Origin: an uncultured Sphingomonadaceae bacterium
GTDB lineage: Bacteria; Pseudomonadota; Alphaproteobacteria; Sphingomonadales; Sphingomonadaceae
Length of the DNA stretch: 64,000 nt
Assembly: GCA_947503245.1 (NCBI GenBank)
Contig: CANNCV010000003.1
Span: forward strand, 6,283-70,282
Direction: 5' to 3'
Shown here: piece after piece, positions 3 to 9,067 of the stretch
How the letters are laid out: each line of letters begins with the position of its first letter
How positions within the stretch are numbered: position 1 is the stretch's first letter
The notes under the pieces: model-generated
What the model was told of the DNA's origin: nothing
The model's database searches: none
What the model saw: the letters and a program-made list of their open reading frames with translations, nothing else
Program-made: the position numbers and the translations under genes

Positions 3-602
3 GCATCTGTTGTCTCGGAAACAGGCGTTAGGTTAACATTGCATGCGCACATTATCTCACATCACCAAATTACGCCCGAAGCTGTGGAAGCGGTGTTGAA
101 GTTAAGAAATCGTGGCATCTCAGTTTATAGCCAAACCCCCGTGAAGGAATATATCAATTTCAATGCTGACGATATTTCCCAAACAGTTGATGAATTTGCA
201 AAGATGTATCGCGGGTTGGTTGCTTGTGGCGTTGACCCCTATATGATGATCGCGGATATGCATCCGACAACATCTAAGCAATACGTTCCATTTGAGCGAA
301 TTGTTACGATGTGGGGTCGCCTTGTTGAAAGTCACAAGTATCCCGGAACTGAACGTCCAAGAACGCTGAGCATACTCTACAAAGGAGGTAATATTATACT
401 TTCTGGTTCTTCTTTGCTGGCCGCCTGCAAGGAGGTGGATGTGTCTAAGGAATTGGTGCGATATCGCTTCCCAGTTATTGGTCCTGATATTAACAACAAC
501 CCCAAAATATGCGAATGGCACATATATGAAGAGCCATTGTCGAAATATAATTCCAATCCAGATTCACTCACAGTTTTAAGGCGCAGCTTAAGCTGTATAT
601 AG
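3..602 (+). CDS. KamA/lysine 2,3-aminomutase-family radical SAM protein, C-terminal part (5' truncated by window)
   Basis: Frame is open from base 3. LHAHIISHHQITPEAVEAVLKLRNRGISVYSQT aligns with the KamA HxNHPxEIT...L..aGi...NQ motif; GVDPY, GGNIIL and terminal IYEEP also match. CxxxCxxC is not in the window. Confidence 0.7.
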   Translation, partial: ASVVSETGVRLTLHAHIISHHQITPEAVEAVLKLRNRGISVYSQTPVKEYINFNADDISQTVDEFAKMYRGLVACGVDPYMMIADMHPTTSKQYVPFERIVTMWGRLVESHKYPGTERPRTLSILYKGGNIILSGSSLLAACKEVDVSKELVRYRFPVIGPDINNNPKICEWHIYEEPLSKYNSNPDSLTVLRRSLSCI

Positions 603-614
603 TTAGAAAATGGA

Positions 615-1481
615 ATGAATCTACTGCATGAACAAATCATAATAAATGGCCTTTTGTTTTCACCAGCTTATGCTTTGTTCGCGCTAGCTTTTTTATTAAA
701 ACTAAAAACTCTAAAATATTGGCCTTTGGCGCTAGCAACAATTGCCACCTTATCACCCTATATATTTTTCAGTGTATTTGAACTCAGCGGGTCCGTTATG
801 TTGGCGGCGGCCATCGCCATTTCGATATCGATTTTGTTTGGCTGGTTTTTTGATCAAATCATTTTTTTGAGGTTGATATCTTGGAATGCACAACCGACGG
901 TTTTGATCGTCGCAGCAATTGGGATCAATGTTATCGGTGAAAGCCTCTTCGGACTAATTTATGGAGATCGACCGCTTGTTCTCATTTCCAATCCAGTGCA
1001 TATTGCCGTTAGCTCAAGAGTTTTTTTAACTTCAAATCAGCTGTCCATTTTTGTATTTGCTTCCGCGGTTTGGATTGTCGTCATGTTGATGTTGAAGCGC
1101 AGTCGTTTGGGTTTGTTCCAACAAGCTATTGAATCATCGTTGAAGCTATCAACAATCCGGCATGTTCCGGTTCGTCGTACCATTCAACTTTTGTCCATTC
1201 TATCTTATGGCTGCGTTAGCATGGCAGGGCTGTTAATTGCATCAGAACGGCAGATATACCCTCAACTGGGGATTGATATTATGCTAGCAGCATTGGTAAT
1301 AGCAGTCGCTGTAAACAAGGTTTCTTTTGGAAGGCTGGTATTATTTTCAATAATAATCTCAATCGCCAATCAGTATATTGGTCAAATTTTCCCGAACGAA
1401 TGGCGAAACTCTATCTTATACCTCGCACTGATATCGCTGCTCATAATTCGTTTTGATAAAAGAAAGATCGTGGATGCGTAA
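615..1481 (+). CDS. Branched-chain amino acid-type ABC transporter permease (LivH-like)
   Basis: 288 aa, multi-TM; IVAAIGINVIGESLFGLIYGD and RSRLGLFQQAI match LivH motifs. Confidence 0.8.
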   Translation: MNLLHEQIIINGLLFSPAYALFALAFLLKLKTLKYWPLALATIATLSPYIFFSVFELSGSVMLAAAIAISISILFGWFFDQIIFLRLISWNAQPTVLIVAAIGINVIGESLFGLIYGDRPLVLISNPVHIAVSSRVFLTSNQLSIFVFASAVWIVVMLMLKRSRLGLFQQAIESSLKLSTIRHVPVRRTIQLLSILSYGCVSMAGLLIASERQIYPQLGIDIMLAALVIAVAVNKVSFGRLVLFSIIISIANQYIGQIFPNEWRNSILYLALISLLIIRFDKRKIVDA

Positions 1482-2330
1482 ATGTTGAGCTATCTGATAT
1501 TTCTTCTGGCTTTGTTGTCCTGCTTCGCTTCTGCATCCATTGCGCTCTCATTGCTTGTAAACACGGGAAAGCGGCCTGTAATTCTAGCTGCTTCGGCAAT
1601 GGCGATTGGAGCCTACTCGACATCCGTGCTCTTAGGTGGGCAATCTTTACATCTACTGATTCTTATGGCTGTCCTTTATATTTTTTTTATATGTATGATA
1701 TTCTGGATGTATTTCCGGATGGACGAGGATGTAATAATTTTATGTACTTTACTTATGAGCTTAATATTTTCGGGTTTACTGGTCAATTTGAGTGATATAA
1801 CAAATGGAGTTAAGGGACTATATATCGGAATTGATACTTTTGACGAAAGGATCGTATGTTTTATATCAATTTCAATATTAGTAGTATGCTGTTGGTTACA
1901 TAAATTTTTTAACTCGGGTCCGATTTCCTTGGAACTTAAAGCAGTTGTAAATAACAGAAATTTTGCGGAAATAATTGGAATAAATCCGTATAAAGCAAGT
2001 TTCATTTTGACTTTTAGCGCGATAACCATTTTAGCAATTGTCGGAGCAAATTACGCCATAGTCATTGGATATATTCACCCTTTATCTTTTAGCGACAGCC
2101 TTTCTCTGGGATTGTTGGCCGCCGTGCTGCTGGCAGCCAATGGCAGAGTTTGGCCTGTAATCGTATGCTCCATAGTGATTTTTGGGATACCTGAGGCCGT
2201 TAGTTTTTTGGAAGTTCCGTCTTCCGTCCTCGGCCATATCCGCAATTTAATCTTCGGTGTGATTTTGATATCAATAGTGTTGTTAAGAGGTTGGTTGGAA
2301 CGTGACATGGAGTACGACGATGCTTCTTAA
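1482..2330 (+). CDS. Branched-chain amino acid-type ABC transporter permease (LivM-like)
   Basis: LCTLLMSLIFSGLLVNLSDITNGVKGL and AVVNNRNFAEIIGINPYK match LivM motifs; ATG directly follows the previous TAA. Confidence 0.8.
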   Translation: MLSYLIFLLALLSCFASASIALSLLVNTGKRPVILAASAMAIGAYSTSVLLGGQSLHLLILMAVLYIFFICMIFWMYFRMDEDVIILCTLLMSLIFSGLLVNLSDITNGVKGLYIGIDTFDERIVCFISISILVVCCWLHKFFNSGPISLELKAVVNNRNFAEIIGINPYKASFILTFSAITILAIVGANYAIVIGYIHPLSFSDSLSLGLLAAVLLAANGRVWPVIVCSIVIFGIPEAVSFLEVPSSVLGHIRNLIFGVILISIVLLRGWLERDMEYDDAS

Positions 2331-3015
2331 GATAGCAGATGCAACGAAAAAATTCGGAACCTTTTGTGTTTTGGACGGCATAAGTTTGAGCATAAAAGCC
2401 GGAGCTCATTTATTTGTCGGCGACAACGGCTGCGGTAAAAGCACACTCTTTAAGTGTATTGCAGGTTTCATCAAATTGGATGGCGGGCAAATAACGATAG
2501 ATGGAAAAACCATAGTTGGTTTGCTCCCTTATCAGATATCCAGATTGGGCCTTATTTTTAATACACAGCAACCGCTATTGGTAGATGACTTAACTGTTAT
2601 CAATCATTTGCAGCTAACCTCATCGAAACTGAGATCACGTAATTGGGACGCAAATTGTGACGTAGAAGTTGGAAGAGATCGCTCTTTGCAGGAATTCCGT
2701 CATGATATGGAAATATCCGTCTTAAAGATGGCCAGCATATCTGAACCTCTAACGGAGAAATTAGGCAATTTGTCATTTGGTCAAAAAAAGGCTGTCCAAT
2801 TTGCCTGCGCAATCAGATCGCAGGCCCGATATTTACTATTGGACGAGCCTTTCGCTGGTGTGGACAAGAATGTCCGTGATTTGATGTTGGGGTATATCAG
2901 AGAAGAGAAGCAAAATCGGACCATTATGGTTTGCGAACATAGAGAAAAGGATAATTCGAAAGTTTTTGATGAGGTTTACGAAATGCCTCTAAAAAATATT
3001 GTAAAAATAAGATGA
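2320..3015 (+). CDS. ABC transporter ATP-binding protein (LivG-like)
   Basis: Walker A GDNGCGKST, signature LSFGQKK, Walker B LLLDEPFAG; ATG at 2320 overlaps the upstream gene end. Confidence 0.85.
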   Translation: MLLKIADATKKFGTFCVLDGISLSIKAGAHLFVGDNGCGKSTLFKCIAGFIKLDGGQITIDGKTIVGLLPYQISRLGLIFNTQQPLLVDDLTVINHLQLTSSKLRSRNWDANCDVEVGRDRSLQEFRHDMEISVLKMASISEPLTEKLGNLSFGQKKAVQFACAIRSQARYLLLDEPFAGVDKNVRDLMLGYIREEKQNRTIMVCEHREKDNSKVFDEVYEMPLKNIVKIR

Positions 3016-3626
3016 TAGAGTTTGATAGTATATCTATTGGTTATAAAAGCCATGTTGTCGTGAGTGAATTTTCTATGGAAATGAGCCGTGGTACGATCAC
3101 GTGGTTACAAGGAAGCAATGCCTCTGGTAAAAGTACAGTATTGAAATGCCTAGTGGGGAAATCTTCATTTTTCAAGGGAGCAATATATATAAATGGCGAC
3201 AGAATTGACCCGAATAAATATCATTTGGAAAACAACGATATATGCTATGTTCCTCAACAAGACGCTGTTTTTTACGATTTAACGGTGAGTCAAAATATTG
3301 AAATAGTTAAGCAGGCCAATCTTGATGTTGGCGAAACTTTCAAGAAAAATTCTTTTGTTTCGAAATTTTTAGGAGATAACTGTGATAAATTGGCAAGTGA
3401 GCTTTCCGGTGGATTGTCTAAAACCCTCAGTTTATTAATGGCATTATTAACTTCACCAAAAATACTTTTGCTGGACGAACCATTCGCGGGAGTCTCGGAT
3501 GAAACTTCTAAGGAAATATCTTCAATAATTTTAGATTTTTCGTCTCAAGGTGGCTGTGTGCTTTTGGCCGAGCATGTTGATGTTCACGACCTCCTACCTC
3601 AAGCCAATTTAGTTAGAATAGACTGA
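3012..3626 (+). CDS. ABC transporter ATP-binding protein (LivF-like, short)
   Basis: Walker A GSNASGKST, LSGGLSK, LLLDEPFAG; ATGA overlap with the previous gene. Confidence 0.85.
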   Translation: MIEFDSISIGYKSHVVVSEFSMEMSRGTITWLQGSNASGKSTVLKCLVGKSSFFKGAIYINGDRIDPNKYHLENNDICYVPQQDAVFYDLTVSQNIEIVKQANLDVGETFKKNSFVSKFLGDNCDKLASELSGGLSKTLSLLMALLTSPKILLLDEPFAGVSDETSKEISSIILDFSSQGGCVLLAEHVDVHDLLPQANLVRID

Positions 3627-3836: not shown

Positions 3837-4393
3837 TTATTTAAACTCACGGTTGTTCAGGTAACGATACAAAGTAGACCGTCCAATACCGAACTGATTG
3901 GCTACGTTGGTAACGGATTGACCTTTGCCGACTAGATATATCGCTTCCATTAACTCCTCACCATTCAATGCTGGCGCGCGTCCGAGCTTCACGCCCTCGC
4001 TTTTGCTGAGGCCATGCCTGCCCTTGTTCTCTCTACAATCAATGACCTTTCGAATACGGCTACTGCCCCCAATATGTGCAGTACGAACTCACCATAAGCT
4101 GTGCCGGTATCGATATACTCGCAGATAGAATGAAAGCCGATTTGGTGATTGTGTAGCGTCGTGATGGTATCGGTTAGATCGCGCATTGATCTTGCAAGAC
4201 AGTCGAGCCTCCGCACAACCAATGTATCGCCCGGCTGCAATGCCTTCATTGCATCACCATAGCCTTCACGGTCGGTTTTTATGCCGCTGATATAGTCTTT
4301 GAATATCTTTTCGCATCCTGCCTTTTCGAGCGCATAAATCTGCAAATCGATGTTCTGGTCCGTTGTTGATACGCGCGCATAGCCTATTCGCAT
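3837..4393 (-). pseudogene. Resolvase/invertase-family small serine recombinase, frameshifted
   Basis: MRIGYARVSTTDQN catalytic domain stops at AKARA* (3989). The shifted frame continues VKLGRAPALN...GIGRSTLYRYLNNREFK* (HTH) to TAA 3837-3839; one G is missing in gcgagggcgtg. Confidence 0.85.
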
Positions 4394-5824: not shown

Positions 5825-6124
5825 TTAGATATTGCCTGTCGGCGCAGATATCCAATTCTCGCGCGAATGGCGAATGCGCAGGATATAGGCCTTTTCGCCG
5901 GTGATCTCATAGACGATCAAATGACTCTTGAAGGGATGTATGCGCACTGGCGGCGATATCTCTTCGCGCAATCGCGCCATTTCAGGAAACTCGCCTAGCA
6001 GTCCAAACACCGCCGCCAAATCATCATGATATCTATTGGCCTGTTCAATCCCAAACTGCTGTGCGCCTTCGATATAGATATCGATCAGGTCGGTTTGGGC
6101 ATGAGTGGACAGGCCGTAAGGCAT
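5825..6124 (-). CDS. parE: Type II toxin, RelE/ParE family
   Basis: YGLSTHAQTDLIDIYIEGAQQFGIEQANRY...HLIVYEI...ILRIRHSRENW. Confidence 0.85.
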   Translation of the reverse strand: MPYGLSTHAQTDLIDIYIEGAQQFGIEQANRYHDDLAAVFGLLGEFPEMARLREEISPPVRIHPFKSHLIVYEITGEKAYILRIRHSRENWISAPTGNI

Positions 6125-6130
6125 ATATGT

Positions 6131-6373
6131 TTATTGCTGCAAGCGTTGGCGTGCTAAATCCTTTATCTCGTCCATGGATAGGTCGCTTGTGCCGCCTGCG
6201 CGGGCTTCATCGACCAGCTTTTGCATGGCGGCTATCTTGCTGCCACGTTCCTGATCGCGGCGGATGAGATCACGGATAAGCTCGCTATCATTGGTATAGT
6301 GGCCTTCGCCTATCTGTGCCTTGATCCATGCGTCTTGTTGTTCTGTAACTATAATGGTTTTGCGTATCGTCAT
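6131..6373 (-). CDS. parD: Type II antitoxin, ParD family (ribbon-helix-helix)
   Basis: TEQQDAWIKAQIGEGHYTNDSELIRDLIRRDQ; lies 6 bp upstream of the toxin. Confidence 0.85.
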   Translation of the reverse strand: MTIRKTIIVTEQQDAWIKAQIGEGHYTNDSELIRDLIRRDQERGSKIAAMQKLVDEARAGGTSDLSMDEIKDLARQRLQQ

Positions 6374-7093: not shown

Positions 7094-7462
7094 ATGACTG
7101 ACTATGACGACCCTCGCATCAGCGACAAATTTGCGGCGCAAGATCAGGCGCTCAGCTTGTATGAGCCCAGTGCGACTGTGCCCGACAGCAATATCCGGGA
7201 ATTCCTGTCCTATCTGGAAAAGGAAAGGCTGACGCAGCCGCAAAAGATTGAACTGATCCAGACCTATTGGAACATCGCCATGTATTTTGTGAAAATGGGC
7301 CATGGCGTGCTGCCATTCCAGATGTTCAATGAACTGGCAAAGCCTTGTGGAGAAACCCGGAAATCTGGCGTTTTATTGAGTGATTCTGGTCCTGATATGC
7401 TATGCTTGGATCATCAAAAGAATGATACTGGAAGCGAGAAGGGGGCAAGCCATGAGCATTGA
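7094..7462 (+). CDS. Hypothetical protein immediately upstream of the large serine recombinase
   Basis: Likely start MTDYDDP (7094) inside ORF 6935-7462; its stop overlaps the recombinase start by 11 nt. Confidence 0.6.
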   Translation: MTDYDDPRISDKFAAQDQALSLYEPSATVPDSNIREFLSYLEKERLTQPQKIELIQTYWNIAMYFVKMGHGVLPFQMFNELAKPCGETRKSGVLLSDSGPDMLCLDHQKNDTGSEKGASHEH

Positions 7463-8975
7463 AACGATGACCAAGACAAAATCCGTTATTTACGCGCGTG
7501 TCTCCTCCGTCAATCAAGTGCTCAAAGGCCATGGCGCAGAAAGTCAGGCGGCTCGTTGCAAAGATTTTGCCAAGCATCGCGGCTATACGGTCGTCAAAAC
7601 CTTTACCGACAAAGCGGTGTCGGGTTCATTGATTGATCGTCCAGCAATGAAGGAATTGCTGGGTTTCCTGCGCAAGCACAGAAAAGACAATGTGCGGGTT
7701 ATCATTGATGATATCTCAAGGCTTGCAAGAGGGCTTGAATCCCATCTGGCGCTGCGCGCTGCAATCTCCAGTGCGGGCGGTGTGCTGGAAAGCCCGTCTA
7801 TCGAATTTGGTGAGGATAGCGACAGTCAGTTGATTGAGCATCTGCTCGCCTCTGTGTCCCAACATGCGCGGGTTAAAAATGCCGAACAGGTCCGCAATCG
7901 CATGGAAGCAAGAATTCGTAATGGCTATTATCCCTTTATCCCGCCACCGGGCTACAAAATGGCCCAGACACAGGGTCAAGGCAAGCTATTGGTGCGCAAT
8001 GAACCGATAACCTCTATTATTCAGGAAGCGATGGAAGGTTATGCCAGCGGTCTCTATCCCTCTCAGGCCGATGCTACCCGCTTCTTGAAATGTCAGCAAG
8101 ACTTTCCCAAAACGCACCATGGCACAGTGACCAACGAAACGGTGAACCGCATGCTGAACAAGGTGATCTATGCCAGAATGGTCGAGCGGGCTGAATTGGG
8201 CGTATCATTGCGTCCGGCTCAGCATGAAGGCCTCATCAGTTTTGAGACCTTTGAGAAGATACAAGAACGCCTCAAGGGCAAAGCCTATGCCACCGCACGG
8301 CATGATGTCAGCGAGGACTTTCCGCTTAGAGGTGCCGTAAATTGCGCTGACTGCGAAAATCCGATGACGTCTTGCTAGTCCAAATCAAAGACGGGCAAGA
8401 AACATGCATACTATATGTGCTTCAAGAAAGGCTGTGAAAGCTATCGCAAGTCTATCAGGTGTGAGACAATCGAAGGGGAGTTTAACAGCCTCCTGAAAAA
8501 TCTATCGCCCACAAAAGGTAATATCGCTTTGTTCAATGCGATATTTAGCAAGCTTTGGGATATGCAGGCCAAACAGGTAAACACCATGAAAGCGCAGCTA
8601 GAACGCAAAATAACGGACACAGGCAGCGAAGTGAACCAATTGCTCAAGCGCATTGTCAGTGCATCCAATGAAAGTGTGATCGCTGCCAATGAGGGTGAAA
8701 TCGAAAAACTGGAACGTGATAAGCTTGTTTGGGCTGAAAAGGCGCAAAATATCACTCGGCAAAAGAGCACCTTCAGCGAAATGTTCGAACTCGCTATCAA
8801 TTTTCTCGCAAACCCGCAGAATCTCTGGAAAAATGGACAGCTAGCGGGCCGTAAAACATTGCTCAGACTGGCCTTTAGTGGCCCTCTGACTTACAAGCGA
8901 AATGAGGGGTTTCGAGCCCCTGAAGTATCCAGTATATTCAAAGCTTTAGAAGGGTTTTTCCAGCGCAAATTTTAA
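7452..8975 (+). pseudogene. Large serine recombinase (integrase) with an in-frame amber stop
   Basis: VIYARVSS catalytic motif and recombinase domain. The zinc-ribbon CADC...PMTSC*SKSKTGKKHAYYMCFKKGC is broken by TAG at 8376-8378 and the same frame continues through 8415-8975. Confidence 0.9.
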
Positions 8976-8977
8976 AA

Positions 8978-9067
8978 TGGCGGACAGGGTGGGATTCGAA
9001 CCCACGGAGAGCTTGCACCCTCGGCGGTTTTCAAGACCGCTGCATTCGACCACTCTGCCACCTGTCC
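8978..9067 (-). tRNA. tRNA-Ser (UGA)
   Basis: Reverse complement GGACAGG...GCGGTCTTGAAAACCGC...GGTTCGAATCCCACCCTGTCCGCCA; long variable arm, 90 nt. Confidence 0.97.

What the first reader, a model, noticed from the sequence alone, without database searches (positions are those of the whole stretch)
3..3626. Island cargo operon: divergent KamA-family radical SAM enzyme coupled to a LivHMGF-like ABC transporter
Seen: five intact, tightly packed, AT-rich genes on an island whose other genes are decaying, which suggests the cargo is under selection. The KamA-like tail departs from canonical KamA/EpmB (SQTPVKEYINF where NQSVLLKGVND is usual; PYMMIADMH where PYYL is usual). Known: KamA homologues make beta-amino acids for natural products and for EF-P modification, and Liv-type ABC systems normally import with a periplasmic binding protein, none of which is visible here. 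Inference: this is the end of an uncharacterised amino-acid-derived biosynthetic or utilisation cluster with its own transporter, and the best candidate here for a new system.
Basis: partly seen in the sequence, partly recalled or inferred. Interest (0 to 1): 0.72.

Follow-up and report, generated by a model that had tools for sequence, protein, structure and literature searches.

The report
Importer-linked lysine-less KamA-like radical enzyme
A strain-specific genomic island carries a compact eight-gene cassette that joins an amino-acid-type uptake pump to a rare, undescribed relative of the radical "aminomutase" enzymes. This relative has lost the lysine that holds the vitamin-B6 cofactor, so it probably does chemistry not yet seen in this enzyme family.

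Summary
The five ORFs at 3-3626 are real, intact, tightly packed and AT-rich. They are the last five genes of an eight-gene operon that starts 4.4 kb left of the window (contig C3:1911-9908). Its order is: Liv-type binding protein, NMNAT-like protein (unkA), small membrane protein (unkB), KamA-fold radical SAM enzyme, two permeases, two ATPases. The "missing" binding protein is therefore the first gene, and this is a whole cassette rather than the tail of a 20-30 kb cluster.

The radical SAM protein belongs to a rare family: about 55 clusters among 5.8 billion proteins. A 100/100-supported branch deeper than the KamA-EpmB split separates it from KamA and EpmB. It keeps the KamA fold, the CxxxCxxC motif and SGGEP. 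The PLP-binding lysine, K in 31/31 canonical proteins, is Asn in 34/34 family members, and an invariant Cys327 is specific to the family.

Linkage to the binding protein and ABC genes recurs in 13 of 28 distinct loci from several phyla. In DPANN archaea and CPR bacteria the enzyme instead pairs with a TrmB-type regulator, a class IV aminotransferase or a racemase-fold protein.

Best reading: an imported amino-acid-like solute undergoes radical conversion that does not use the canonical PLP route. Substrate and product are unknown. I found no description in the papers searched.

The parts
3..602 (+). C-terminal 199 codons of the KamA-fold radical SAM gene. The full gene is contig C3:5244-6884, 546 aa, so it starts 1038 bases left of the window. 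Three further operon genes lie outside the window: binding protein C3:1911-3065, NMNAT-like unkA C3:3071-4705, and membrane protein unkB C3:4702-5244.
   Evidence: Searches give the ORFs. TIGR00238 84.5 bits, below the 199.2 cutoff. Foldseek best match 2A5H, E 6.5e-17. Asn477 sits where canonical proteins have the PLP lysine; the start overlaps the unkB stop (TAATG).
615..1481 (+). LivH/UrtB-like ABC permease, 288 aa
   Evidence: PF02653, 37.7 bits (cutoff 26.8). UrtB 36.6 bits, far below the equivalog cutoff; 23-26% identity to the permeases of three other cassettes.
1482..2330 (+). LivM/UrtC-like ABC permease, 282 aa
   Evidence: PF02653, 42.6 bits; 22-25% identity to cassette homologues. 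The start abuts the previous stop with no gap.
2302..3015 (+). LivG/UrtD-like ABC ATPase, 237 aa
   Evidence: PF00005 80 bits; UrtD 97 bits and LivG 91 bits, both below equivalog cutoffs.
3012..3626 (+). LivF/UrtE-like ABC ATPase, 204 aa; last gene of the operon
   Evidence: PF00005 87 bits; UrtE 103 bits, below cutoff.
3837..4393 (-). Context: small serine recombinase split into two ORFs (catalytic domain 3989-4393, HTH_7 3837-3992)
   Evidence: Resolvase 3.9e-40 and HTH_7 6.8e-13 on separate ORFs.
5825..6373 (-). Context: intact ParE toxin / ParD antitoxin pair
   Evidence: PF05016 7.5e-16; PF03693 1.9e-07.
7380..8975 (+). Context: large serine recombinase interrupted between 8378 and 8415; likely the island integrase
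   Evidence: Resolvase domain 2.1e-23 in the first ORF, with the rest in a second ORF.
8978..9067 (-). Context: tRNA-Ser(UGA), right-hand boundary of the island
   Evidence: ARAGORN.

Best explanation
This is a horizontally acquired, self-contained uptake-and-conversion cassette.

Proposed mechanism:
1. Shown by homology: a membrane-anchored Liv/HAAT-type binding protein captures a solute, and two permeases with two ATPases import it. That the solute is amino-acid-like, carrying a carboxylate and an amine, is inferred.
2. Shown by sequence and fold: in the cytoplasm a KamA-fold radical SAM enzyme carries the [4Fe-4S]-binding CxxxCxxC and the SAM-binding SGGEP. It also keeps the basic residue (K231) and the acidic residue (D432) at the positions of KamA's carboxylate- and amine-binding Arg134 and Asp293.
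3. Inferred: the enzyme makes a 5'-deoxyadenosyl radical and abstracts a hydrogen atom from the imported compound.
4. Inferred: the PLP-anchoring lysine is an invariant Asn and its glycine loop is shortened. The rearrangement therefore probably does not go through the classical PLP aldimine route. The family-specific invariant Cys327 is a candidate hydrogen-atom donor, as in radical SAM epimerases. The outcome would then be an isomerisation or epimerisation, or another PLP-independent change.
5. Inferred: in about half of the transporter-linked cassettes an NMNAT-like nucleotide-binding protein (unkA) and a small membrane protein (unkB) act as accessories. unkA may nucleotidylate or ligate the product, by analogy with EpmA working after EpmB.

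Substrate and product are unknown.
For: Operon anatomy:
- Eight same-strand genes with gaps of 5, -4, -1, 12, 0, -29 and -4 bases.

Binding protein:
- Peripla_BP_6 at 2.7e-65. The nearest solved structure is a branched-chain/aromatic amino-acid binder, 3TD9, at 5.7e-47.

Radical SAM enzyme:
- The AF2 model has pLDDT 82.8. 2A5H is the best structural match by 12 orders of magnitude.
- hhalign against canonical KamA gives 99.5% probability.
- In the joint alignment the lysine column is K in 31/31 canonical proteins and N in 34/34 family members.
- Retained invariants are K231 (canonical Arg), D432 (canonical Asp), H363, Q391, N399 and Y427. C327 is family-specific.

Conserved linkage, at only 39-47% enzyme identity:
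- L003, L004, L006, L008/L066, L009, L011, L013, L067, L068, L071 and L024.
- Binding proteins are 48-51% identical across cassettes. Permeases are only 22-26% identical, which suggests that the binding protein and the enzyme track the same ligand.

Amino-acid theme in distant members:
- Class IV aminotransferase (3e-35) or an alanine-racemase-fold protein (1.6e-15) lies downstream, and a TrmB regulator lies upstream.

Horizontal acquisition:
- The gene is absent from 5 same-genus and 16 same-family genomes.
- GC is 0.426 against 0.508 for the genome.

unkA:
- hhalign against archaeal NMNATs gives 94.5% probability, E 8e-08.
Against: - No substrate, product or cofactor is demonstrated. PLP could still bind non-covalently.
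- The role of Cys327 is inference only.
- The roles of Arg134, Asp293 and Lys337 in KamA come from my memory of Lepore et al. 2005, which the library does not hold.
- unkA has no significant fold match (best E 0.07) and lacks the first His of HxGH. It may bind a nucleotide rather than catalyse anything.
- unkA and unkB are missing from L008/L066 and L024, and L067 and L071 carry a different 531-589-aa membrane protein in that slot.
- The window's own copy is the most divergent of its group (terminal branch 1.23), so activity in this strain is not assured.
Confidence: 0.55

Rival explanations
1. It is a classical PLP-dependent amino-acid 2,3-aminomutase with a new substrate. It would make or degrade a beta-amino acid that the transporter imports, with PLP held without a lysine Schiff base or by another lysine such as the near-invariant K490.
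For: The fold and core are KamA-like. The counterparts of Arg134 and Asp293 are kept. A near-invariant Lys490 lies 13 residues after the Asn. Downstream aminotransferases in distant members would suit amino-acid catabolism. Other windows of this scan show lysine-bearing KamA enzymes paired with importers (unchecked notes).
Against: The lysine column is Asn in 34/34 members and K in 31/31 canonical proteins. The glycine-rich loop is two residues shorter. K490 lies in an insertion with no canonical counterpart. The Asp330 counterpart is hydrophobic. As far as I know, natural PLP enzymes without a Schiff-base lysine are almost unknown.
Confidence: 0.15
2. The cassette, or its unkA/unkB part, belongs to an inter-genomic conflict (anti-phage or similar) system rather than to nutrient metabolism. 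The radical SAM enzyme would make a modified metabolite or nucleotide, and the NMNAT-like protein would handle NAD-type molecules.
For: The cassette sits on mobile islands beside defence-type genes. L004 has an MmeI-type restriction-modification gene and an SNF2 helicase. L003 has VapBC. L068 has SIR2_2 immediately downstream. L071 has a Dam methylase and IS66. This window has ParDE and recombinases. Two unkA-family members carry C-terminal TIR domains and one carries an N-terminal trypsin-like peptidase. Distribution is patchy and strain-specific. Viperins are the second-best fold match.
Against: None of the four signature proteins matches PADLOC. Only the ATPases give generic hits. Binding-protein-dependent HAAT importers are nutrient systems, and I know of no defence system that contains one. 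Distant members sit among housekeeping genes in small archaeal genomes with aminotransferases. The viperin match is generic radical SAM core similarity, 12 orders of magnitude weaker than KamA.
Confidence: 0.1
3. In this particular strain the cassette is inert cargo on its way to decay. The family is real, but this copy may no longer function.
For: This copy has the longest terminal branch of the transporter-linked group: 1.23 against 0 to 0.66. It departs from at least 90% of the family at K90, F140, F343, V350, Y397, N401 and F503. Its unkA has LRQH where most relatives have xxGH. Its LivF-like ATPase is short, 204 aa against 240-268. Neighbouring recombinases are broken.
Against: All eight ORFs are open with overlapping or abutting junctions. 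All cluster, SAM-binding and family-specific invariants (C222, C226, C229, SGGEP, C327, D432, N477) are kept. Both ATPases keep recognisable Walker A, signature and Walker B motifs (translations).
Confidence: 0.15

Closest known systems
Lysine 2,3-aminomutase KamA (Clostridium subterminale, PDB 2A5H) and the KamA family (NCBIfam TIGR00238)
   Same: Same overall fold: Foldseek E 6.5e-17, TM 0.68 on the target, about 480 aligned columns. Also shared are the N-terminal DWxxWxW/HxxR motif, CxxxCxxC, SGG(D/E)P, and the counterparts of Arg134 (K231) and Asp293 (D432).
   Different: It scores 84.5 bits against a cutoff of 199.2. A 100/100 branch of about 4.2 substitutions per site separates it. The PLP lysine is Asn in all members and the Gly loop is shorter. 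The Asp330 counterpart is hydrophobic. It has an invariant Cys327, a roughly 40-residue insert after the cluster motif, and extra N- and C-terminal segments (546 aa against 416).
EpmB (YjeK) with EpmA: the EF-P beta-lysylation pair
   Same: A KamA-family radical SAM enzyme is encoded next to a nucleotide-using partner from an aminoacyl-tRNA-synthetase-related superfamily. unkA is NMNAT/HIGH-fold-like, which offers an analogy for activating the product.
   Different: EpmB keeps the lysine (E-x-x-S-K in every EpmB-type sequence). The TIGR03821 score here is 58 against a cutoff of 369. No efp gene is linked. EpmA is a class II LysRS paralogue, not an NMNAT-like protein. EpmB has no transporter linkage.
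AblA/AblB (N-epsilon-acetyl-beta-lysine synthesis) and other aminomutase-plus-importer operons
   Same: An aminomutase-family gene sits in a small operon with an uptake system. Unchecked notes from this scan describe such pairings.
   Different: Those enzymes are canonical and lysine-bearing. Here TIGR03820 scores 62 against a cutoff of 525, and there is no acetyltransferase.
LivJHMGF / UrtABCDE (HAAT family, TC 3.A.1.4) ABC importers
   Same: Same five-part architecture: a Peripla_BP_6 binding protein, two BPD_transp_2 permeases and two ATPases.
   Different: All five proteins fall far below every equivalog cutoff. For example, the binding protein scores 148 bits against 477 for the LivJ/K model and the permease 36.6 against 250 for UrtB. 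Enzyme genes are inserted between the binding protein and the permeases.
Radical SAM epimerases that use a cysteine as hydrogen-atom donor (for example PoyD and YydG; recalled from my own knowledge, not tested)
   Same: A possible working analogy only: 5'-deoxyadenosyl radical abstraction followed by hydrogen return from a conserved Cys, without PLP.
   Different: They belong to a different branch of the superfamily, act on peptides, and have no sequence relationship beyond the radical SAM core. The analogy rests solely on the invariant Cys327.

Membership tests
KamA family / PLP-dependent amino-acid 2,3-aminomutases | Radical SAM CxxxCxxC cluster motif | tested here: met
   C222, C226 and C229 are invariant in 34/34 members and align to the canonical cysteines.
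KamA family / PLP-dependent amino-acid 2,3-aminomutases | KamA fold, including the N-terminal DWxDWxWQ segment and the domain after the barrel | tested here: met
   Foldseek gives 2A5H at E 6.5e-17 over about 480 columns; the next match is at 1.9e-05. hhalign gives 99.5%.
KamA family / PLP-dependent amino-acid 2,3-aminomutases | Score above the curated NCBIfam cutoff (TIGR00238 subfamily; equivalogs AblA, EpmB, Glu and Arg aminomutases) | tested here: not met
   84.5 against 199.2; 62.1 against 525.4; 58 against 369.3; 58.1 against 650; 62.4 against 600. It is the lowest hit among 151 genomes of the phylum.
KamA family / PLP-dependent amino-acid 2,3-aminomutases | Schiff-base lysine for PLP (Lys337 of 2A5H, in the GGGGK / ExxSK motif) | tested here: not met
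   K in 31/31 canonical KamA- and EpmB-type proteins. N in 34/34 family members in the joint L-INS-i alignment, with a loop two residues shorter. Ungapped extension of the hhalign result agrees to within one residue.
KamA family / PLP-dependent amino-acid 2,3-aminomutases | Substrate-binding residues: Arg134 for the carboxylate, Asp293 and Asp330 for the distal amine (roles recalled from Lepore 2005, which is not held) | tested here: inconclusive
   The Arg134 counterpart is K231 (K or R in all members). The Asp293 counterpart is the invariant D432. The Asp330 counterpart is a hydrophobic residue, I471.
KamA family / PLP-dependent amino-acid 2,3-aminomutases | Monophyly with characterised members | tested here: not met
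   Canonical KamA plus EpmB form one side of a 100/100 branch of length 3.23 + 1.02. The KamA-EpmB split is only 1.14 + 1.22.
HAAT (LivJHMGF/Urt) binding-protein-dependent ABC importer | Type I periplasmic binding protein (Peripla_BP_6) encoded with the transporter | tested here: met
   C3:1911-3065, PF13458 at 2.7e-65, with an N-terminal hydrophobic anchor. It lies outside the window.
HAAT (LivJHMGF/Urt) binding-protein-dependent ABC importer | Two BPD_transp_2 permeases and two ABC ATPases | tested here: met
   PF02653 at 37.7 and 42.6 bits; PF00005 at 80 and 87 bits.
HAAT (LivJHMGF/Urt) binding-protein-dependent ABC importer | Equivalog-level identity to the Liv or Urt systems (which would assign the substrate) | tested here: not met
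   All scores are far below the cutoffs: LivJ/K model 148 against 477, UrtB 36.6 against 250, UrtD 97 against 304, UrtE 103 against 286.
NMNAT-type (HIGH-motif) nucleotidyltransferases, for unkA | Profile-level homology to bona fide NMNATs | tested here: met
   hhalign of 48 unkA-family sequences against two archaeal NMNATs (187 and 134 bits to TIGR01527) gives 94.5% probability and E 8.2e-08 over 74 columns.
NMNAT-type (HIGH-motif) nucleotidyltransferases, for unkA | Catalytic (H/T)xGH motif | tested here: not met
   Only the last His is near-invariant. The first position is T, N or L, and this copy reads LRQH.
NMNAT-type (HIGH-motif) nucleotidyltransferases, for unkA | Pfam or structural match to the family | tested here: inconclusive
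   No Pfam or NCBIfam hit. The model is confident only for residues 21-230, with mean pLDDT 59.9. The best Foldseek E is 0.07, to generic Rossmann folds; NadD and cytidylyltransferases appear only at E about 0.5.
Known anti-phage defence systems (PADLOC-DB 2.0) | A match of any signature protein to a defence model | tested here: not met
   The binding protein, unkA, unkB, the radical SAM enzyme and both permeases give no hits. The ATPases give only generic ABC/AAA hits.

The most novel reading that the evidence does not exclude
This family would be the first branch of the aminomutase (KamA) lineage that works without the canonical PLP route. The enzyme would be a radical SAM isomerase or epimerase of a free, imported amino acid. 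It would use the invariant Cys327 as hydrogen-atom donor, with Asn477 in place of the PLP lysine. The binding protein would define a new ligand specificity. The NMNAT-like partner would activate the product for ligation. The TrmB-paired versions in DPANN archaea and CPR bacteria, followed by a class IV (D-amino-acid/branched-chain) aminotransferase or a racemase-fold protein, would reveal an unrecognised route of amino-acid (possibly D- or allo-amino-acid) salvage in these reduced genomes.
Probability: 0.2. Interest if true: 0.8.

Novelty: new variant of a known kind. Interest (0 to 1): 0.62.

Why it matters
KamA-type enzymes are the textbook case of radical SAM and PLP working together. A deep, phylogenetically wide sister family keeps the fold and the substrate-anchoring residues, has exchanged the PLP lysine for an invariant asparagine, and has gained an invariant cysteine. 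That combination points to chemistry not yet assigned to this scaffold.

The family comes with its own high-affinity binding protein. This gives a direct experimental route to the substrate: screen ligands against the binding protein. Such a route is rarely available for orphan radical SAM enzymes.

Its presence in DPANN archaea and CPR bacteria, next to a dedicated regulator and amino-acid enzymes, suggests a role in the metabolism of organisms whose biochemistry is poorly known.

For the genome at hand, the cassette is a strain-specific island cargo that may confer use of an unusual solute.

Tried and rejected
- PADLOC scan of all eight proteins gave only generic ATPase hits, so there is no support for a known defence system.
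- The Foldseek search with the unkA model found nothing significant. The NMNAT link rests on the profile-profile comparison only.
- Pfam and NCBIfam found nothing for unkA, unkB, or the large unknown proteins downstream in L008/L066.
- Four literature searches found no description of the family or cassette. One more search failed on term syntax.
- The KamA structure paper (PMC1236562) and Behshad 2006 (PMC2553251) are not held. The roles of KamA residues are therefore cited from memory.
- The left end of the island could not be defined. Contig C3 starts 1.9 kb upstream of the operon. BLAST of the tRNA region found only two partial 30-32-base matches on C1, which are other tRNA-like sequences and not an att repeat.
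- Model coordinates are not exposed to scripts. The distances from Cys327, Asn477 and Lys490 to the cluster could not be measured.
- I considered and dropped the idea that the window holds the tail of a long biosynthetic cluster.
- I considered a fused unkA-unkB reading for the 531-589-aa proteins of L067 and L071. They do not match the unkA profile.

Full report
**Observation.** ORF listing confirms five open, same-strand genes at 3-602, 615-1481, 1482-2330, 2302-3015 and 3012-3626. The first is the tail of a KamA-family protein, the next two are BPD_transp_2 permeases, and the last two are ABC ATPases nearest UrtD/LivG and UrtE/LivF. This stretch has GC 0.38-0.42, against about 0.49 for the rest of the window and 0.508 for the genome. 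The neighbours to the right are island-type genes. They include a small serine recombinase split into catalytic and HTH ORFs, an intact ParDE pair, and a large serine recombinase split in two beside tRNA-Ser(UGA).

**Extension to the left.** The window is C3:6283-70282 of an 11-contig, 2.96-Mb genome. I fetched C3:1-10500 as L002. The operon starts at C3:1911 and has eight genes:
- a 384-aa Peripla_BP_6 binding protein with an N-terminal hydrophobic anchor (E 2.7e-65);
- a 544-aa protein with no Pfam or NCBIfam match (unkA);
- a 180-aa protein with two to three hydrophobic segments (unkB);
- the full 546-aa radical SAM protein (ATG at C3:5244, motif CPIGCADC);
- the four transporter genes seen in the window.

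Junctions are 5, -4, -1 (TAATG), 12, 0, -29 and -4 bases. Upstream lie two opposite-strand DUF5681 genes at GC 0.53, then the contig end. The cassette is complete at about 8 kb and is not the tail of a long cluster.

**The enzyme is a remote KamA relative.**
- It scores 84.5 bits on TIGR00238 (cutoff 199.2) and 58-62 bits on the AblA, EpmB, Glu- and Arg-aminomutase equivalogs (cutoffs 369-650).
- Against PDB sequences only 2A5H matches: 36 bits for the single sequence and 74 bits for the family profile. The match covers the N-terminal DW..W.W motif, the cluster motif and SGGEPL.
- A family alignment of 34 sequences gave an AlphaFold model with pLDDT 82.8 and pTM 0.87. Its best structural match is 2A5H at E 6.5e-17 over about 480 columns. 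The next matches are viperins at 1.9e-05.
- Profile-profile comparison with three canonical KamA proteins from same-order genomes gives 99.5% probability.

**The PLP lysine is gone.** I collected 31 canonical KamA- and EpmB-type proteins from 151 genomes of the phylum. All 31 have lysine in the GGGGK / ExxSK column. In a joint L-INS-i alignment that column is Asn in 34 of 34 members of the new family (Asn477 here), and the preceding loop is two residues shorter. Conserved in both groups are DP175-176, the three cluster cysteines, K231 (canonical Arg), SGG(E/D)P, R325, T328, R338, H363, Q391, N399, P426, Y427, D432 (canonical Asp) and P466. Family-specific invariants include C327 (canonical H or G), Y165 (canonical Glu in 31/31), T236-R237-E238, H458, K490 and Y501. 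From memory of the KamA structure paper, which is not held, Arg134 binds the substrate carboxylate, Asp293 and Asp330 bind the distal amine, and Lys337 binds PLP. On that reading the anchors for a carboxylate and one amine are kept, and the PLP anchor is lost.

**Phylogeny.** Canonical KamA plus EpmB sit on one side of a 100/100 branch of length 3.23 + 1.02 substitutions per site. This is deeper than the KamA-EpmB split of 1.14 + 1.22. The window's copy has the longest terminal branch of the transporter-linked group (1.23). It also differs from at least 90% of the family at seven positions.

**Rarity and distribution.** A search of 5.8 billion protein clusters found 55 relatives. The best is 48% identical, nearly all are metagenomic, and most have no Pfam hit. 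A scan of 185,579 species genomes found 19 loci. They come from Acidobacteriota, Ignavibacteriota, Armatimonadota, Brocadiaceae, several Patescibacteria (CPR), DPANN archaea, Methanosarcinales and Gammaproteobacteria. None of 5 same-genus or 16 same-family genomes has any KamA-like hit. The cassette is therefore a strain-specific acquisition.

**Gene context is conserved.**
- Of 28 distinct loci, 13 have the enzyme next to the binding protein and/or the Liv-type permeases: L002, L003, L004, L006, L007, L008/L066, L009, L011, L013, L024, L067, L068 and L071.
- Binding proteins are 48-51% identical between cassettes and the enzymes 39-47%. The permeases are only 22-26% identical and the ATPases 27-33%.
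- The slot between the binding protein and the enzyme varies. It holds unkA plus a small membrane protein in eight loci, a different 531-589-aa membrane-anchored protein in two, and nothing in three.
- Optional extra genes are a molybdopterin oxidoreductase in L004 and a methyltransferase in L006 and L071.
- In 11 loci, mostly DPANN and CPR, the enzyme is instead paired with a divergently transcribed TrmB-family regulator. In three it is followed by a class IV aminotransferase, and in two by an alanine-racemase-fold PLP protein. In the tree these copies form a nested clade with 97/100 support.

**unkA.** An exhaustive profile search of 1.84 billion representatives found only 62 members. Their near-invariant motifs are RxRFQPxxxxH, FNPL and WxxPxFDxxDxxD. 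Profile comparison with two archaeal NMNATs, taken from genomes behind my loci, gives 94.5% probability and E 8.2e-08. RFQP..H aligns on GRFQPFHxGH and FNPL aligns on NPF. The fold search was not significant, and the first histidine of HxGH is not conserved. Two family members carry C-terminal TIR domains and one carries an N-terminal trypsin-like domain.

**Interpretation.** The most economical reading is an uptake-and-conversion cassette. A HAAT-type importer, whose binding protein is nearest to amino-acid binders (3TD9), delivers an amino-acid-like solute to a KamA-fold radical SAM enzyme. Because that enzyme lacks the Schiff-base lysine, it probably works without the canonical PLP route. 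The invariant Cys327 suggests hydrogen-atom return, as in radical SAM epimerases, but this is inference.

Rivals are:
- a true PLP aminomutase that binds PLP in another way;
- a conflict-system role, suggested by island neighbours such as the MmeI-type restriction-modification gene, SIR2_2 and toxin-antitoxin pairs, and by the TIR fusions, although PADLOC gives no support;
- functional decay of this particular copy.

**Prior knowledge.** Four literature searches found no description. No window of this scan holds a similar sequence. Notes from other windows describe lysine-bearing KamA enzymes paired with importers. The pairing theme is therefore not unique, but this enzyme family is.

**Limits.**
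- The left end of the island is unresolved.
- KamA residue roles are cited from memory.

Noticed in passing
Proteins P0080, P0090 and P0099 (unkA-family representatives): Two relatives of unkA carry a C-terminal TIR_2 domain (1.7e-13 and 3e-10). One carries an N-terminal trypsin-like peptidase domain. The NMNAT-like unkA domain therefore also occurs fused to effector-type domains typical of conflict systems.
   Followed up: partly
L008:8304-14546 and L066:10951-19093: In the Acidobacteria-type cassette (permeases and ATPases, then binding protein, then enzyme) the enzyme gene is followed by a conserved run of large proteins (175, 751, 543 and 569-601 aa). None has a Pfam match.
   Followed up: partly
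L068:14352-15410; L004:1-4188; L071:15518-17384: Defence-type neighbours flank other copies of the cassette. L068 has a SIR2_2 protein directly after the last ATPase. L004 has an MmeI-type methylase/restriction gene and an SNF2 helicase. L071 has a Dam methylase, a faint nucleoside deoxyribosyltransferase-like hit and an IS66 remnant.
   Followed up: no
L067:7400-8995 and L071:7232-9001: A second, mutually homologous (5e-23) family of 531-589-aa proteins with N-terminal membrane segments occupies the slot where other cassettes have unkA and unkB. It has no Pfam match and does not match the unkA profile.
   Followed up: partly
L002:295-819 and 1061-1450 (contig C3, left of the window): Two paralogous DUF5681 genes on the minus strand at GC 0.53-0.56 lie immediately upstream of the cassette, at the very start of contig C3. 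The left boundary of the island is not assembled.
   Followed up: no
window 3837-4393 (-) and 7380-8975 (+): Both serine recombinases of the island are interrupted. The small one is split between its catalytic and HTH_7 domains. The large one is split between 8378 and 8415, ending 2 bases from tRNA-Ser. The ParDE pair between them is intact.
   Followed up: partly
L019 and L021: An 'uncultured archaeon' bin and a Patescibacteria bin carry nearly identical enzyme genes (terminal branches 0.028 and 0.059), each followed by the same class IV aminotransferase. This is either very recent transfer or a binning error in one of the two assemblies.
   Followed up: no
L027:335-1333, L028:2622-3638, L029:2579-3640: In three same-order genomes the canonical, lysine-bearing KamA gene is immediately followed by a roughly 335-aa gene. 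By eye its translation looks like a D-Ala-D-Ala-ligase-type ATP-grasp enzyme. I did not scan it.
   Followed up: no
places G088:C13:40336-41172, G163:C78, G177:C4, G097:C72, G143:C10: Several genomes of the phylum hold other KamA-like genes that score 120-146 bits, below the family cutoff, with ORFs of 400-490 aa. These are further unassigned branches between canonical KamA and the family studied here.
   Followed up: no
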